Virus record (IMG/VR): IMGVR_UViG_3300028886_001681
Coordinates: 1-64,000 of that record
Reading direction: 5' to 3' (one strand)
From: a virus
Taxonomy: Duplodnaviria > Caudoviricetes
Length of the DNA stretch: 64,000 nucleotides
The stretch's first letter is position 1; each line of letters starts with the position of its first letter. Below, piece by piece: positions 6,928 to 23,768 of the stretch. A program made the position numbers and the translations under genes. Under the pieces are notes generated by a model. It was not told where the DNA came from, ran no database searches, and was given only the letters and a program-made list of their open reading frames with translations.

Positions 6928-8883
6928 ATGGGAAACTCTAAAGTTAATTTGGTGAATGTTTCAAAATCGAACAAACTCTATGGAAAAAACACGAGTCGAC
7001 TTCTTAATTTTTTCAACATCGGTGTGACCGACAAGGGAAATATGATTCCAACAGAGCAAGTGTTGGACAAGCGAGGAAATCCCACCCAAAAAGTCAAGCC
7101 GATAGAGATGCCCTCCGCCATGGAGAGTGCCTATCAATACATTGTTTCCAACATGAACACCGCTCCATACATGGACAACGCCTATCGATTCTTGCGCTAC
7201 AAGGACATGAAAGCGGCTTGCGCGACCGAGCCTATTCTCGAAACCGCAGTCAAGGTATATGTGAGCGAAGCCTACACTTCTGAATACGGAAAGCAGTTGG
7301 TTCAAATCAAGGCCAAAGACTCAAAACTTGAGAAGCATTTCTATGAATGGTTTGAGAATGTAGGTTTCACCGAGAATGTAATTCGCGACATCTTCACCAA
7401 CTTGGTCATGTACGGCGACGCGTTTTGGCTTAACGGAATCGACATGGAGGGAAAGGGCGGAATCACGGCAATTACTCCGATAGACCCCTTCTTGGTGTCC
7501 GACAGAATCGAATTCAATGTCGGAATGGTCGAGGAGAAGCGACAGTGGTTCAACATGGCCTTGAACTTGGCCAACACATACCCCTCTCTCCAACAAATTA
7601 TAGATATCGTGACCCAAAAGAATGTCGAGGACATAAGCATGTTCTACAAGTCATATCTTTTCGGATATACTCTAAAATTGTGGGCGGAGGAAGAGAACGG
7701 AAACTCGCAAGATGTGAAGAATGTGAAGGGTGTTCCTCCGTGGTGCATAGCGCATTGCAGGCTCTTCACGACGGACAAAGATTTCTTCCCCTTTGGAAAG
7801 CCGATGATGTTGTCCGCTTTGCCGACATACAAATCTTACAAGACCACTCAACTCTTGGTCGATATGTTGAGAAGCCAATCATTCCCTCGCGAGCATTACT
7901 CAATTAAGTGTGACGAAAACAGCGACCCCTTCACACGTCAGATGCGCATATCGGAAGCCAAGAACTTTCTCGAAGGAATCACTCCGCAGACGCAAAATCA
8001 AGACGGACTTTCAGTGGGAGCCAAAATTTACAGTTGCGAAGGCCTCGTCGACTACGACTTGTTAGACCCCTCAATTGATTTGGACGCTCTAGGCGACCTT
8101 GAGGAAAAGAAATACTCAATGTGCATGTCCACAGGCATTCCGATGACTTATTTGTGTCCTGAAGAAGGAGATGGATTGGGCGGAGACAACGCCGAGAAGT
8201 TGTATTACTTGAACAAGATTTTCCAACGAAGGGTTGACGCATTAAGAAGGGCTTTCCTTGAAACATTGGATGAAACATATCGCATGCACTTGCTCTTGAC
8301 AGAGGAATTTGACGGCGACAAGTCGGAGTTTGAATTGAGCATAGAGAATCCTATAGAGGATATAACCTCGGATAAAATTTCACAAATTAGCGATGTGTTT
8401 GGTTTGGCACAAGAAATTCTTAATGTATTGGCTAGTTCCTTCGGATTAGACCGTGGGGAGTCTTTATCACCAAATATTGTAAAATCGGTACTCGCTCAAT
8501 ATCTTCCTGTAGAAAAAGATATAATTTCTAAATGGGTAGATGAAGTTTATCATTGTGCCGAAGAAGAAAATAAAAATAGCGATAGTGATAACGAAGATGA
8601 AAATGAAAAACCAAAAGATAACATGTTTAGTAAAAAAAATAATTTGTTTGAATCATTACAAGAAAAACAAATTATGGAAAAATGTGGAGAAAAACTTAAC
8701 GAAGGATATTTTAAATATAAAAAAGAGCATGGTGTGATGGAAGGACAAATGGGAAATCGTTATTATTATAATAACACCTATCGATTAAAAGCGCATTACA
8801 AATACACCCCTCTTTATTTCTTGAAGGAAGAAATTCAAACGCAAAAAGCAAAACGAATTCAAGAAGAAATGGAAAAGAAATAA
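6928..8883 (+). CDS. Portal protein, T4 gp20-like
   Basis: RYKDMK..EP.LETAV..YVSEA, NLVMYGDAF, AHCRL...FPFGKPM and GIPMTYL patterns typical of T4-superfamily portals. Confidence 0.8.
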   Translation: MGNSKVNLVNVSKSNKLYGKNTSRLLNFFNIGVTDKGNMIPTEQVLDKRGNPTQKVKPIEMPSAMESAYQYIVSNMNTAPYMDNAYRFLRYKDMKAACATEPILETAVKVYVSEAYTSEYGKQLVQIKAKDSKLEKHFYEWFENVGFTENVIRDIFTNLVMYGDAFWLNGIDMEGKGGITAITPIDPFLVSDRIEFNVGMVEEKRQWFNMALNLANTYPSLQQIIDIVTQKNVEDISMFYKSYLFGYTLKLWAEEENGNSQDVKNVKGVPPWCIAHCRLFTTDKDFFPFGKPMMLSALPTYKSYKTTQLLVDMLRSQSFPREHYSIKCDENSDPFTRQMRISEAKNFLEGITPQTQNQDGLSVGAKIYSCEGLVDYDLLDPSIDLDALGDLEEKKYSMCMSTGIPMTYLCPEEGDGLGGDNAEKLYYLNKIFQRRVDALRRAFLETLDETYRMHLLLTEEFDGDKSEFELSIENPIEDITSDKISQISDVFGLAQEILNVLASSFGLDRGESLSPNIVKSVLAQYLPVEKDIISKWVDEVYHCAEEENKNSDSDNEDENEKPKDNMFSKKNNLFESLQEKQIMEKCGEKLNEGYFKYKKEHGVMEGQMGNRYYYNNTYRLKAHYKYTPLYFLKEEIQTQKAKRIQEEMEKK

Positions 8884-21243: not shown

Positions 21244-21272
21244 TTGACAAAAATTTAATTGTGTGTTATAGT
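21244..21272 (+). promoter_or_regulatory. Strong sigma70-type promoter of the RNA operon
   Basis: TTGACA-17-TGT-TATAGT with an A/T-rich UP region. Confidence 0.85.
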
Positions 21273-21304: not shown

Positions 21305-21378
21305 GGTTCCTTAGCCTAACGGTTTTAGGGCATCCGACTTTCTATCGGAGGACGAAGGTTCGACTCCTTCAGGAACTA
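21305..21378 (+). tRNA. tRNA, anticodon TTC (Glu) by position, with atypical U37
   Basis: Acceptor GGTTCCT/AGGAACT, anticodon stem TCCGA/TCGGA with loop CTTTCTA, T-arm GAAGG-TTCGACT-CCTTC. Confidence 0.8.
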
Positions 21379-21508: not shown

Positions 21509-21516
21509 AAAATTTT

Positions 21517-21588
21517 GTCTCCTTCGTCTAGTGGTTAGGACTTGCGGTTCTCATCCGCACAACAGCAGTTCGACTCTGCTAGGAGATA
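21517..21588 (+). tRNA. tRNA-Glu(CTC)
   Basis: Acceptor GTCTCCT/AGGAGAT, anticodon arm TGCGG-TTCTCAT-CCGCA, T-arm AGCAG-TTCGACT-CTGCT. Confidence 0.92.
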
Positions 21589-21590
21589 AA

Positions 21591-21907
21591 AGAGAACATG
21601 AACCTTTTAGGAAACGAATAAGTCAAGTTCCGATTAGGTTTGAATTCCGCAAGTTCTCACTTTTTCTTTTTCGCGGAAACATCATTGGCGGAACAACAAT
21701 CCGTCAAGGAAGACTGTAAGAAAGGAAGCGCGAGTCCCATAAGTCGCGCCTAAAGCGGGTGAAGTGTTGCGGAGCCGTCGCCTTTCTTGGAGGTGAACGA
21801 TAAGAAATCCCTTCAATCAACCTCCTAAACCGAGATTGTTGGGCGGTCATATTTAGAGTTTGCGAGCAACTTGTTCAGAACCGATTACAAGAAGGAAACT
21901 CGCGTAA
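21591..21907 (+). ncRNA. Structured non-coding RNA region of unknown family
   Basis: Stems GAGAAC/GTTCTC, TTGGCGGA/TCCGTCAA, AAGAAAGG/CCTTTCTT, GCGCGA/TCGCGC, GGAGGT/ACCTCC and GCGAG/CTCGC; no credible ORF. Confidence 0.55.
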
Positions 21908-21911
21908 TTTT

Positions 21912-21992
21912 GGGACATCCTATGGCAGAACCGAGACTAAAGCCTACAACGGAAAGTTTCGGACAAAGCGAGTTCAATCCTCGTATGTTCCA
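21912..21992 (+). ncRNA. RNA resembling the tmRNA tRNA-like domain (TLD), without an mRNA-like domain
   Basis: Acceptor GGGACAT/ATGTTCC with G3.U70 and A73; 12-nt stemless D-loop; 8-bp CCGAGACT/AGTTTCGG stem; T-arm GCGAG-TTCAATC-CTCGT. Confidence 0.6.
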
Positions 21993-21997
21993 ATTTG

Positions 21998-22082
21998 GAG
22001 TTCGGTGCTCATTGAAAGCCCACGAATCGCGTTTTCCCCTCCCACCCACGCGGTTCAAGGCGAGCGCCGAACTCTTTTTTTT
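21998..22082 (+). ncRNA. Long hairpin RNA with a C-rich apical loop, ending in a U-tract (also the operon terminator)
   Basis: GAGTTCGGTGCTC/GAGCGCCGAACTC, TTGAA/TTCAA and CGCG-TTTTCCCCTCCCACCCA-CGCG, then T8. Confidence 0.6.
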
Positions 22083-22110
22083 CAACTATTTATGATTTGA
22101 GAGGTTGAAG

Positions 22111-22272
22111 TTGGACATATTGATTCATTTCAAAGACGGATTTGAGATTGAGGTTCGCGATGTTGTCGATAGAAAGGTGAACTCTGAAATTTATAAAGTC
22201 GTGACACAATGCGGTTGCGTCCAAGAATTCGTGACTGAAAAAATTGAGTATGTCAAAACCCTCAAAGAATAA
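22111..22272 (+). CDS. Hypothetical small protein (53 aa, TTG start)
   Basis: SD GAGG; CAACTAT at 22083-22089. Confidence 0.5.
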   Translation: MDILIHFKDGFEIEVRDVVDRKVNSEIYKVVTQCGCVQEFVTEKIEYVKTLKE

Positions 22273-22295
22273 ATCGAAAAAATTTGTAAAATTCC

Positions 22296-22324
22296 TTGAC
22301 ATTTTTTCTAGTCCGCGCTATCAT
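22296..22324 (+). promoter_or_regulatory. Sigma70-type promoter
   Basis: TTGACA-17-TATCAT. Confidence 0.75.
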
Positions 22325-22356
22325 CTTTCTCAAGATTATCGAGGAGTGAATGAAGC

Positions 22357-22635
22357 ATGAAAAGATTTATTATCGCGTTGGTTGCGCTTTTAACATTGTT
22401 GTTGGGTTCTTGTACAGTCAAATATGGCGAAATTCGTTCTATGGAAAATAAACAGACGATTGAGGTGGAAGATTTTATCAATCTTGAACCGCTCATTATC
22501 ACCTCATCGAGCAATATTTATGTGGACAAGAACACCGATGTATTGTATCTTAGAGAATATCACATTCTTTGTCCGATTATGAAGGCTGACGGCACTTGCT
22601 TGACTCTGACGGAGTGGAAGGAGAGCAGAAAATGA
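22357..22635 (+). CDS. Lipoprotein (DUF6440-like)
   Basis: Signal peptide with LLGSC lipobox; IYVDKNTDVLYL...PIMKADG. Confidence 0.7.
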   Translation: MKRFIIALVALLTLLLGSCTVKYGEIRSMENKQTIEVEDFINLEPLIITSSSNIYVDKNTDVLYLREYHILCPIMKADGTCLTLTEWKESRK

Positions 22636-23768
22636 ACTTTTTGTGCCAAGGCGGAACAGTGAAATCCATCAATGACGGACAGACTCATTACATCAATCCG
22701 TCCGAAGTGAAGTCTTGCTTTAAAAAGGCGTTGCGGAATTTCGGTCGAGTCAATGTTTTGTGCGAAGGATACGGAACTTTCTACAGTAAAGATTTCAAGC
22801 CCATAGTTCTCAAACCGAGGAGCGACGGAAACTATTCGATGGTCGACGAGATTTTCCAACAGTTCAAGCCGAAGGAGAAATGGGCGTCCGTCGCTATAAC
22901 AGGAAAGGACGGAAAGCCTTTCTACATCAAGGACAAGGAACTAGTCAACGAAATCATAATGCGGTGCGACTCCGCAATCGTCGGCGTTCAAGGCAACAAC
23001 GAATTGTTCAACAAGTTGATTGATGTGTCGACAAGAAAGCCTCAACCGAATCCTACCTTGTCGTTTGACGAATGGGATGAAATATACGACAAGTGGCGGA
23101 AATTTTGGGGAGCGAAGCCTTGCGTCTTGGATTGCGAAGTGTTCGATGTACAGTTGATTTCGTCTTGCCATTGCGACGGCCCGCTCTCGTTCGTCCATCC
23201 TGAAACTGGAAAGGTCGGCTTGGTGACGAACTGCCGTTGGACTTGGGAACCAATTGAGGCTTGCCGAGAAGAACTCCAATGGATTTGCGACGAGATATGC
23301 GACGAGGACAACAAACTTGAGTTCTATGTGTCATTCTTTGACGAGGACTACAACTACGGAAACTACGGAAAGTTGCCGGATTACGATTCGGAAAAGATGA
23401 GGATGAAGAAAGTCGAATACAACGACCCTCAAGTAACCTTCAAACTTTCCCACAAGGGAATAGAACTTGTTCCGATTATTCCCGTCAAGAAAATGAAATG
23501 GGTGTTCAAGTGCAACAAGAAACTTTACGGAAAGGAATACAAAAGGTGGTCTTTGGTTTGGATAGTTGAAAAATTGTTCAGAAATTTGCAAGAGAAATTT
23601 TTCTATAATGATTGGGTGGCGTGGCATGACTACACTATGTGGGGCGGCTTGGATTCAGTTTACACTAGATGCGAAAGGCACTTCACAATAGACCAAACAA
23701 TCAGAATGTTGCAGATGTGGCAAGATTTTTGTTGCGAATGGCAGAAGGAGAATGAAGATAGAAAATGA
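22632..23768 (+). CDS. Hypothetical protein
   Basis: 378-aa ORF overlapping the previous stop (ATGA). Confidence 0.75.
   Translation: MNFLCQGGTVKSINDGQTHYINPSEVKSCFKKALRNFGRVNVLCEGYGTFYSKDFKPIVLKPRSDGNYSMVDEIFQQFKPKEKWASVAITGKDGKPFYIKDKELVNEIIMRCDSAIVGVQGNNELFNKLIDVSTRKPQPNPTLSFDEWDEIYDKWRKFWGAKPCVLDCEVFDVQLISSCHCDGPLSFVHPETGKVGLVTNCRWTWEPIEACREELQWICDEICDEDNKLEFYVSFFDEDYNYGNYGKLPDYDSEKMRMKKVEYNDPQVTFKLSHKGIELVPIIPVKKMKWVFKCNKKLYGKEYKRWSLVWIVEKLFRNLQEKFFYNDWVAWHDYTMWGGLDSVYTRCERHFTIDQTIRMLQMWQDFCCEWQKENEDRK

What the first reader, a model, noticed from the sequence alone, without database searches (positions are those of the whole stretch)
21912..21992. Stand-alone tmRNA tRNA-like domain: a candidate trans-translation mimic or inhibitor
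Seen: a 7-bp acceptor stem starting GGG with a G3.U70 wobble and discriminator A; a 12-nt D-loop with GG and no D-stem; an 8-bp helix in place of the anticodon arm ending TTTCGGAC; and a canonical T-arm. The helix is closed by only 16 nt. Known: G3.U70 plus A73 is the AlaRS identity signal, and a stemless D-loop with a UUUCGGAC-type junction is characteristic of tmRNA, whose TLD binds SmpB. tmRNAs lacking the mRNA domain are known from jakobid and oomycete mitochondria. Inference: a phage mini-tmRNA that could sequester SmpB, or rescue stalled ribosomes without tagging. Caveats: the linker before the T-arm (ACAAA) is longer than in tmRNA, and CCA is not encoded. Weak extra: a frame GCA...CTC-GCG-TAA (ATCSEPITRRKLA) ends just upstream at 21907, faintly tag-like.
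Basis: partly seen in the sequence, partly recalled or inferred. Interest (0 to 1): 0.85.

Follow-up and report, generated by a model that had tools for sequence, protein, structure and literature searches.

The report
Anticodon-less alanine-type tRNA-like phage RNA
A gut phage ends its small tRNA operon with an 81-base tRNA-shaped RNA gene that carries the alanine-charging signal but no anticodon. It is built like the tRNA-like head of the ribosome-rescue RNA (tmRNA), a type already known in phages, but it lacks the nucleotides that this head uses to hold its partner protein SmpB, so its role is open.

Summary
The structure is real. Window 21912-21992 (+) folds as described, with a 7-bp acceptor (G3:U70, A73), a 12-nt D region, an 8-bp helix with a 16-nt cap, a 5-nt linker and a canonical T arm. 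A minimal acceptor-plus-T-arm descriptor hits only this element and the two tRNA-Glu genes in the 160-kb phage record, and nothing in 40 shuffles. In related phages the same slot holds a tRNA-Gln gene.

The "mini-tmRNA" reading is only partly supported. The architecture and the alanine identity fit. The near-invariant D-loop motif GG-N-UUCGAC, which carries the SmpB contacts, is replaced by GGCAGAACC. The GGAC Gs are Watson-Crick paired, and AAA separates GGAC from the T stem. Rfam tmRNA does not detect the element, although it gives the published DS6A TLD-only RNA 43 bits. A model built from phage mini-tmRNAs gives it 17 bits, against 39-66 for held-out minis and 34 for a tRNA-Ala.

The tag-like frame is not conserved. 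Only two distinct copies exist, so there is no covariation evidence, and their near-identity lies in a recombination block.

TLD-only RNAs are already published, and this scan has reported them repeatedly on other DNA. This one is a lineage-restricted outlier: most likely a non-decoding alanine acceptor, with uncertain function.

The parts
21244..21272 (+). Operon promoter: TTGACA, 17 nt spacer, TATAGT, with TG before the -10
   Evidence: 11 of 12 matches. It is the only strong promoter upstream of the RNA array. Function is inferred.
21305..21378 (+). tRNA-Glu(UUC), no encoded CCA
   Evidence: ARAGORN; Rfam tRNA 60.9 bits; sequence.
21516..21589 (+). tRNA-Glu(CUC), no encoded CCA
   Evidence: ARAGORN; Rfam tRNA 53 bits; sequence.
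21908..21911 (+). U-rich 5' leader (UUUU) directly before G1; presumed RNase P site
   Evidence: The U run at -1 to -4 is kept in three otherwise unrelated leaders (window, L032, L062). Cleavage is inferred.
21912..21918 (+). Acceptor stem, 5' strand GGGACAU (G3 at 21914)
   Evidence: It pairs with 21985-21991.
21919..21930 (+). D region CCUAUGGCAGAA: GG present, no stem, lacks the tmRNA motif UUCGA
   Evidence: Positions 8, 11 and 12 differ in L032, where a 4-bp hairpin can form.
21931..21962 (+). Long arm: 8-bp helix CCGAGACU/AGUUUCGG closed by a 16-nt cap (internal loop, 2 bp, hexaloop); no 7-nt anticodon loop
   Evidence: Identical in all six copies.
21963..21967 (+). Linker ACAAA. Together with G50 and G51 it reads GGAC followed by an AAA insert
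   Evidence: In 14 of 14 phage TLD-only RNAs and in the full tmRNAs listed, GGAC abuts the T stem directly.
21968..21984 (+). T arm GCGAG-UUCAAUC-CUCGU with a canonical T loop
21985..21992 (+). Acceptor stem 3' strand AUGUUCC (U70 at 21989) and discriminator A73 (21992); no CCA follows (AUU)
21998..22090 (+). Terminal hairpin with the conserved loop UUUUCCCCUCCCACCC and a U tract; ends the operon
   Evidence: Homologous hairpins with covarying stems occur in L007, L002 and L039.
21866..21907 (+).
   Evidence: The stop is lost and the frame altered in L032. The whole segment 21799-21907 is replaced in L062.

Best explanation
This is a real gene for an 81-nt tRNA-shaped RNA that cannot decode. 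It is transcribed as the last tRNA-type unit of a phage tRNA/small-RNA operon.

Proposed maturation, like the neighbouring CCA-less tRNA-Glu genes:
- RNase P cuts after the U-rich leader.
- A 3' endonuclease cuts after A73.
- The host enzyme adds CCA.
- Host AlaRS then charges the RNA with alanine, because it carries G1-C72, G2-C71, G3:U70 and A73.

With no anticodon arm it cannot read codons. In build it is an analogue of the tmRNA tRNA-like domain, that is, of the TLD-only 'mini-tmRNAs' of phages such as DS6A. I do not file it as a member of that family.

Its most likely action is as a non-productive competitor of host tmRNA for AlaRS and EF-Tu. If the host SmpB tolerates its altered D loop, it could also compete for SmpB and stalled ribosomes.

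Shown: the fold, the identity nucleotides, the operon position, and the absence of the tmRNA D-loop motif. Inferred: transcription, processing, CCA addition, alanylation and any effect on ribosome rescue.
For: - The fold is the MFE structure.
- The minimal tRNA descriptor hits only this element and the two tRNA-Glu genes in 160 kb, and nothing in 40 shuffles.
- The element occupies exactly the slot between the conserved 'region D' RNA and the terminal hairpin where relatives L007 and L002 carry tRNA-Gln(UUG). A tRNA gene stands at that place in the related arrays.
- In L062 a TnpB cassette replaces 110 nt up to 4 nt before G1 but leaves the element intact, and a phage-type promoter lies about 60 nt upstream.
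- All 20 stem pairs are intact, and the T loop and GG are canonical.
- Features shared with the TLD:
  - G3:U70 and A73 are the keys to AlaRS recognition (PMC3968760).
  - The D region has no stem.
  - A long helix replaces the anticodon arm.
  - The 3' UUUCGGAC is identical to the Rfam tmRNA consensus.
  - GG sits at positions 13-14, as in that consensus.
- A model built from this element ranks the DS6A TLD-only RNA first among about 860 kb of phage loci (26.1 bits, against 22 for the best tRNA).
- Genuine phage TLD-only RNAs do sit in tRNA arrays (L128), and some also lack encoded CCA (L073, L151, L161, L178).
Against: - Rfam tmRNA, tRNA and mt-tmRNA give no hit at E<=10. DS6A gets 43.2 bits.
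- Model R1, built from phage minis, gives 17.1 bits, and 16.2 for L032. Held-out minis get 38.7-66.2, tRNA-Ala gets 33.6 and other tRNAs 12-27.
- The motif GG-N-UYGAC is present in 42 of 45 full tmRNAs and in all 14 minis examined, and is absent here.
- At the positions that contact SmpB in E. coli tmRNA (A15, U17, C18, G19; G19C abolishes binding, PMC8363625), this RNA has C, G, A and A.
- The tandem G.A neck is replaced by Watson-Crick C-G pairs, and AAA is inserted before the T stem.
- There are only two distinct sequences and no covariation. The 100% identity of positions 13-81 between window and L032 lies within a 430-nt block that is also 96-100% identical at ORF third positions and in intergenic DNA. 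It is therefore not evidence of selection on the RNA.
- In L032, pair 7:66 is broken.
- The phage record encodes no SmpB.
Confidence: 0.4

Rival explanations
1. It is a tRNA-shaped processing module, or a relic kept for processing. Only the acceptor/T-arm minihelix matters. It recruits RNase P and the 3' tRNA endonuclease to cut the polycistronic transcript, defining the 3' end of the upstream region-D RNA and the 5' end of the terminal hairpin RNA. G3:U70 would be incidental.
For: - The parts RNase P needs (acceptor, T arm, U at -1) are perfect, while the D and anticodon parts are non-canonical.
- The 5' D region is the most variable stretch between window and L032 (8 of 12 nt identical).
- The element lies between two conserved structured RNAs.
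- Relatives have an ordinary tRNA in the same slot, so any tRNA shape may serve.
- CM scores are no better than for generic tRNAs.
- G.U pairs are frequent in this RNA (3 of 20 pairs), so a G.U at 3:70 is not very improbable.
Against: - In L039 the terminal hairpin has its own promoter and no tRNA-like unit before it, so it needs no such handle.
- In L062 region D is disrupted, yet the element is kept with a promoter.
- The element is unrelated in sequence to the tRNA-Gln of relatives. It was therefore acquired, not decayed in place.
- A perfect 8-bp helix, GGAC at the junction and the full Ala identity set together are an unlikely coincidence.
- A non-Ala tRNA-like RNA carrying G3:U70 would be mischarged.
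Confidence: 0.3
2. It is a non-decoding Ala-tRNA mimic that acts outside ribosome rescue. It could be an alanine donor for a tRNA-dependent transferase, or a decoy that absorbs a host factor or defence nuclease that recognises the acceptor/T-arm of tRNA-Ala.
For: - The alanine identity set is present with no anticodon and no SmpB-contact motif.
- The apical 16 nt of the long arm are unlike any tmRNA feature.
- tRNA-dependent, non-ribosomal uses of Ala-tRNA exist in Firmicutes (from general knowledge, not tested here).
Against: - No FemAB-type or related GNAT transferase gene is found in the 160-kb record. The record is about 77% complete.
- No partner gene is evident; the conserved 390-aa neighbour has no recognisable family.
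- No complementarity of the cap loop above chance was found in the genome.
Confidence: 0.12
3. The element is a bona fide tmRNA-derived TLD that binds host SmpB as canonical TLDs do, and either sequesters it or rescues ribosomes without tagging.
For: - The TLD-like architecture: GGAC, GG at positions 13-14, and a D region of the same length as in E. coli tmRNA when aligned on GGAC.
- DS6A is the top hit of model R2.
- A TLD-only molecule is reported to inhibit tmRNA (PMC4131195, PMC11915505).
Against: All sequence-defined TLD hallmarks apart from GGAC and the acceptor are missing, including the G19 equivalent (PMC8363625). An AAA insert changes the junction geometry. The tag-like frame is not conserved.
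Confidence: 0.13
4. It is not a functional RNA. It is either a chance fold or a dead tRNA-like remnant carried along in a recombining block.
For: Only two distinct sequences exist. No covariation is seen. The identity with L032 is explained by a shared block. No homologue was found in IMG/VR, INPHARED phages or 185,579 prokaryote species.
Against: The descriptor gives 0 hits in 40 shuffles. All stems are intact. The element sits in a tRNA slot of a promoter-to-terminator RNA operon. It is retained next to a TnpB insertion, with a promoter.
Confidence: 0.05

Closest known systems
TLD-only ('Standard, no CDS') tmRNA of Mycobacterium phage DS6A (JN698994, 28478-28557), and unannotated phage mini-tmRNAs found here in IMG/VR (e.g. 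L128:7874-7954, L178:3066-3143, L092:2322-2399)
   Same: Both are phage-borne and about 80 nt long. Both have a 7-bp acceptor with G3:U70 and A73, a stemless D region with GG, a capped helix in place of the anticodon arm, GGAC before a canonical T arm and no tag frame. Some sit inside tRNA arrays, and some lack encoded CCA.
   Different: All of those carry GG-N-UYGAC, a G.A/A.G neck, and GGAC directly abutting the T stem. They score 38.7-66 bits on model R1, and DS6A scores 43 bits on RF00023. This element has GGCAGAACC, a fully Watson-Crick neck and an AAA insert. It scores 17 bits on R1 and is missed by RF00023.
tRNA-like domain of bacterial tmRNA (Rfam RF00023)
   Same: The acceptor identity elements, the T arm, the reduced D loop and a 3' strand cuuucGGAC (PMC3968760).
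   Different: It has no mRNA-like domain or pseudoknots. The SmpB-contact nucleotides A15, U17, C18 and G19 are replaced (PMC8363625). There is no CM hit.
tRNA-Ala
   Same: G1-C72, G2-C71, G3:U70, A73, the T loop and GG.
   Different: It has no D stem, no 5-bp anticodon stem, no 7-nt loop and no UGC/GGC anticodon. Rfam tRNA gives no hit, and ARAGORN calls it only at a lowered threshold, as an implausible 'tRNA-Arg(acg)'.
Reduced mitochondrial and plastid tmRNAs lacking a tag frame (jakobids, Mallomonadaceae; PMC3590771, PMC11915505)
   Same: A tmRNA-type RNA reduced to little more than the tRNA-like part.
   Different: Those are organellar and co-occur with SmpB. Rfam mt-tmRNA does not match this element.
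Non-tRNA stable RNAs encoded in phage tRNA clusters (T4 species 1 and 2 RNAs; recalled from memory, not checked here)
   Same: Small stable RNAs of unknown role that are co-transcribed and co-processed with phage tRNAs.
   Different: They have no known alanine identity or TLD-like build. No sequence comparison was made.

Membership tests
tmRNA tRNA-like domain / TLD-only mini-tmRNA | 7-bp acceptor stem with G3:U70 wobble and A73 discriminator (AlaRS identity) | tested here: met
   GGGACAU/AUGUUCC plus A. The same holds in L032, apart from pair 7:66.
tmRNA tRNA-like domain / TLD-only mini-tmRNA | Canonical T arm (5 bp, loop UUCRANY, G53-C61) | tested here: met
   GCGAG-UUCAAUC-CUCGU.
tmRNA tRNA-like domain / TLD-only mini-tmRNA | Reduced D loop without a stem | tested here: inconclusive
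   There is no stem in the window copy. In L032 two substitutions allow a 4-bp hairpin.
tmRNA tRNA-like domain / TLD-only mini-tmRNA | Conserved D-loop motif GG-N-UUCGAC carrying the SmpB contacts (A15, U17, C18, G19) | tested here: not met
   The motif is present in 42 of 45 full tmRNAs and in 14 of 14 minis. Here the sequence is GGCAGAACC. The contacts are from PMC8363625.
tmRNA tRNA-like domain / TLD-only mini-tmRNA | Neck of tandem G.A pairs (5' GAC with 3' GGAC), with GGAC directly abutting the T stem | tested here: not met
   GGAC is present, but both Gs pair with C20 and C21, and AAA is inserted before the T stem.
tmRNA tRNA-like domain / TLD-only mini-tmRNA | Helix (H2) in place of the anticodon arm | tested here: met
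   8-bp helix with a 16-nt cap.
tmRNA tRNA-like domain / TLD-only mini-tmRNA | Recognised by covariance models of the family | tested here: not met
   RF00023 gives no hit at E<=10, against 43.2 bits for DS6A. R1 gives 17.1 bits, against 38.7-66.2 for held-out minis and 33.6 for tRNA-Ala.
tmRNA tRNA-like domain / TLD-only mini-tmRNA | 3' CCA (encoded or added), alanylation, SmpB and EF-Tu binding | not testable with these tools
   CCA is not encoded, as in the neighbouring tRNA-Glu genes and in some genuine minis. The biochemistry could not be run.
Canonical tRNA (Rfam RF00005) | D stem, 5-bp anticodon stem with 7-nt loop, CM score | tested here: not met
   There is no D stem or anticodon loop and no RF00005 hit at E<=10. 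ARAGORN does not call it at default settings.
Mitochondrial tmRNA (Rfam mt-tmRNA) | CM score | tested here: not met
   No hit at E<=10 among all 4227 Rfam families in the 111-nt search.

The most novel reading that the evidence does not exclude
The element founds a separate kind of phage effector RNA: an anticodon-less tRNA mimic that is charged with alanine and does not use the canonical SmpB-binding surface. It would act either through a divergent contact with SmpB or by tying up AlaRS, EF-Tu or another Ala-tRNA-handling factor. That would be a route to manipulating host translation quality control distinct from the DS6A-type mini-tmRNAs.
Probability: 0.15. Interest if true: 0.7.

Novelty: new variant of a known kind. 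Interest (0 to 1): 0.4.

Why it matters
TLD-only tmRNAs are a published but barely studied phage tool against the host's ribosome-rescue system. An outlier that keeps the alanine-charging signal and the overall shape but drops the SmpB-contact nucleotides is useful in two ways. If it still binds SmpB, it shows which TLD features are really needed. If it does not, it points to a second use for anticodon-less Ala-tRNA mimics.

For annotation, it shows that such elements escape ARAGORN and Rfam. It also shows that resemblance to a TLD needs a positive-control CM test before an element is filed as a mini-tmRNA.

Tried and rejected
- **Detectors.** ARAGORN in default, tmRNA, intron and mitochondrial modes gave no credible call. 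At -ps70 it gave only a poor 'tRNA-Arg(acg)'. Rfam gave nothing for the element in gathering mode or in two E-value runs.
- **Searches for homologues.**
  - INPHARED phages, blastn in distant mode: none.
  - IMG/VR exact and degenerate patterns: none, or three chance hits without a tRNA shape.
  - Prokaryote genomes: none for the 24-mer, and one chance hit inside a coding region of an alphaproteobacterium.
  - A terminal-hairpin pattern found nothing in IMG/VR. In JGI metagenomes it gave mostly chance hits but did recover L032 and L039.
  - Protein anchors: the 390-aa neighbour gave relatives with tRNA-Gln in the slot. The 55-aa neighbour gave the near-identical copies. SLT homologues led to unrelated smaller phages without the array.
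- **Tag-like frame.** Rejected.
- **Conservation in L032 as a sign of selection.** Rejected, because the identity is a block that includes synonymous and intergenic sites.
- **Cap-loop complementarity to the phage genome.** Chance level.
- **Phage-encoded partners.** No SmpB, CCA-adding enzyme, FemAB or FemAB-like GNAT gene was found.
- **The 390-aa neighbour.** No Pfam, PDB or Atlas lead.
- **Host identification.** Not achieved. Only indirect hints exist (gut and rumen samples, extended -10 promoters, strong GGAGG ribosome-binding sites), and they suggest a Firmicute.

Full report
**The object.** Window 21912-21992 (+) reads as follows:
- GGGACAU (acceptor 5' strand)
- CCUAUGGCAGAA (12-nt D region)
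- CCGAGACU (helix 5' strand)
- a 16-nt cap
- AGUUUCGG (helix 3' strand)
- ACAAA (linker)
- GCGAG-UUCAAUC-CUCGU (T arm)
- AUGUUCC (acceptor 3' strand)
- A (discriminator)

This three-way junction is the minimum-free-energy fold (-23.1 kcal/mol, z = -2.44).

**Is it more than chance?** The window is part of a 160,258-nt IMG/VR virus record, about 77% complete. ARAGORN finds only two tRNAs in the whole record, tRNA-Glu(UUC) and tRNA-Glu(CUC), 320-600 nt upstream on the same strand. I wrote a minimal descriptor: a 7-bp acceptor, a 5-bp T stem closed by G53-C61, a UUCRANY loop, and a total length of 60-95 nt. On both strands of the record it hits exactly three places, the two tRNA-Glu genes and this element. 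It hits nothing in 40 composition-preserving shuffles. The three units lie between a near-consensus promoter (TTGACA-17-TATAGT) and a long terminal hairpin with a U tract. This is a tRNA-type gene, not a chance fold.

**Context in relatives.** Homologues of the 390-aa protein just downstream are abundant in gut and rumen metagenomes. In relatives at about 55% protein identity (L002, L007, L039) the same operon layout recurs. tRNA genes come first, then a conserved non-coding stretch ('region D', 77% identical to window 21688-21787). In L002 and L007 a tRNA gene follows, and then the same terminal hairpin with the loop UUUUCCCCUCCCACCC. In L039 the tRNA and the hairpin are separated by a reverse-strand gene. 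The unit between region D and the hairpin in L002 and L007 is a tRNA-Gln(UUG), and L039 carries a 90-nt tRNA-Gln(UUG) after its array. It is unrelated in sequence to the present element. The element therefore occupies a tRNA slot as a swapped cassette. Neither tRNA-Glu gene encodes CCA, so its absence here is the norm for the operon.

**Close copies.**
- Four contigs carry the element unchanged (L062-L065).
- In L062 a cassette with an IS605-type TnpB gene replaces window 21799-21907. It ends 4 nt before G1, and a phage-type promoter (TTGACA-17-TAATAT) lies about 60 nt upstream of the intact element.
- L032 is the only divergent copy. It differs at positions 7, 8, 11 and 12 and nowhere else. 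T7G breaks pair 7:66, while C8U and A11G create a possible 4-bp hairpin in the D region.

I first read the 69 unchanged positions as purifying selection. A segment-wise comparison does not support that. The whole stretch 21924-22356 is 95-100% identical, including third codon positions of the next ORF (96%) and intergenic DNA (100%). The following ORF is 72% identical. The identity is a shared, presumably recombined, block. With two distinct sequences there is no covariation evidence either way.

The tag-like frame loses its stop and frame in L032 and is deleted in L062. It is not linked to the element.

**Is it a tmRNA tRNA-like domain?** TLD-only tmRNAs are published. Hudson et al. list phage DS6A as 'TLD only' and note that a similar molecule strongly inhibits tmRNA, perhaps by titrating SmpB (PMC4131195). 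The 2025 tmRNA database counts nine 'Standard, no CDS' sequences (PMC11915505). Earlier notes of this scan also report many such phage genes on other DNA. I used them only as a lead to DS6A.

- *Positive control.* Under the same Rfam settings the DS6A RNA (L061:179-261) scores 43.2 bits on RF00023 (E = 5e-16), with the 312 internal model positions skipped. The present element gives no hit to tmRNA, tRNA or mt-tmRNA at E<=10, even in a 111-nt search.
- *Collected minis.* An IMG/VR pattern scan gave me genuine phage minis: L073, L092, L098, L109, L111, L128, L131, L143, L151, L157, L161, L165 and L178. Together with DS6A, all 14 carry GG-N-UYGAC in the D loop and GGAC directly abutting the T stem. 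So do 42 of 45 full-length tmRNAs in the same contigs.
- *Model R1.* A covariance model of ten minis (R1) scores held-out minis at 38.7-66.2 bits, a plain tRNA-Ala at 33.6 and other tRNAs at 12-27. It scores the present element at 17.1 and its L032 copy at 16.2.
- *Model R2.* In the reverse direction, a model of the element (R2) ranks DS6A first in about 860 kb of phage loci. The margin is small, 26.1 bits against 22 for a tRNA, and the other minis do not reach E<=1.

**Where it differs.** I aligned the element on GGAC and on GG at positions 13-14, using the Rfam consensus GGGGguGAucuGGaUU.CGAC...cuuucGGACG. At the consensus positions aUUCGA after GG the element has CAGAAC.
- In E. coli tmRNA, SmpB Trp122 sits in a pocket made by A15, U17 and A334. 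G19 stacks with C18 on a hydrophobic patch of SmpB, and G19C abolishes binding (PMC8363625).
- Here those positions are C15, G17, A18 and A19. Only the A334 equivalent is kept.
- The tandem G.A neck is replaced by two C-G pairs.
- Three extra As separate GGAC from the T stem.

The element therefore has the TLD's architecture and its AlaRS signal but not its SmpB-binding signature.

**What it most likely does.** The acceptor/T-arm half is a perfect tRNA half, with a U-rich leader at -1 to -4 that is kept in three otherwise unrelated leaders. Processing by RNase P and a 3' tRNA endonuclease, followed by CCA addition, is the natural inference. With G1-C72, G2-C71, G3:U70 and A73, the keys to AlaRS recognition (PMC3968760), alanylation is likely once CCA is added.

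The RNA cannot decode. I therefore favour a non-decoding alanine acceptor that works like a TLD-only RNA, as a competitor in the tmRNA pathway (confidence 0.4). SmpB engagement remains doubtful.

The main rival (0.3) is that only the minihelix matters and the unit serves as a processing signal between two conserved small RNAs. Against this, L039 expresses the hairpin from its own promoter without any tRNA-like unit, and L062 keeps the element although region D is disrupted. Other decoy or donor roles (0.12), the strict SmpB-sequestration reading (0.13) and no function (0.05) remain open. The phage record encodes no SmpB, CCA-adding enzyme or Fem-type transferase.

**Novelty and score.** The kind (phage TLD-only RNA) is known and, according to this scan's own earlier notes, common. 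This element is a lineage-restricted outlier that fails the family's sequence tests, so I rate it a new variant of a known kind. Evidence is limited to two sequences and there are no expression data. The interest is moderate (0.4). It rests mainly on what the element could teach about which TLD features are needed for SmpB binding, or on a possible SmpB-independent role.

Noticed in passing
window 21688-21872 (also L007:3172-3394, L002:3072-3169): 'Region D' is a conserved non-coding RNA, 77% identical across phages whose neighbouring proteins are only about 55% identical. One hairpin covaries: GCGCGA...UCGCGC in the window, AUGCUA...UAGCAU in L007 and ACGCUA...UAGCGU in L002, around a conserved loop GUCC(C)AUAAG. 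No Rfam family matches it.
   Followed up: partly
window 21998-22090; L007:3524-3595; L002:3503-3570; L039:5130-5205: The terminal hairpin has a conserved C-rich loop (UUUUCCCCUCCCACCC) and fully covarying stems in four phage lineages, followed by a U tract and the motif CAACTAT. In L039 it has its own promoter and no tRNA before it.
   Followed up: partly
L062:737-2295: A 1.56-kb cassette with an IS605-family TnpB (OrfB, 444 aa, minus strand) replaces window 21799-21907 inside region D in an otherwise 97-99% identical phage. A phage-type promoter follows it.
   Followed up: partly
window 21760-22640 versus L032: Identity is mosaic: 95% (21760-21871), 68% (21872-21911), about 97-100% (21924-22356) and 72% (22357-22635). 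This suggests recent recombination, with a junction inside the first 12 nt of the element.
   Followed up: yes
L002:2980-3062 and L039:3621-3710: Relatives carry odd tRNAs. One is an 83-nt tRNA-like unit with a UAU anticodon loop and a long extra arm, which ARAGORN does not call. The other is a 90-nt 'tRNA-Gln(UUG)' with a long extra arm.
   Followed up: no
window 22596-23768: A 390-aa protein is conserved next to the RNA operon in all relatives, and in L002-L005 an RNA ligase gene (PF09414) follows it. It has many invariant Cys and Trp residues and no Pfam, PDB-sequence or Atlas match. Only its N-terminus hits phrog_7644.
   Followed up: partly
L127:1108-1188: A GC-rich IMG/VR phage carries an 81-nt G3:U70 tRNA-like RNA that also lacks the UYGAC motif, yet scores 38.7 bits on the mini-tmRNA model. 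It is another possible deviant TLD-only RNA.
   Followed up: no
L128:5859-10986: A canonical 81-nt TLD-only mini-tmRNA (7874-7954) sits between tRNA-Ala and tRNA-Trp inside a 26-tRNA phage array.
   Followed up: partly
L130:964-1151: ARAGORN labels two adjacent tRNAs with CUA anticodons as tRNA-Pyl in a phage tRNA array. They are likely amber suppressors.
   Followed up: no
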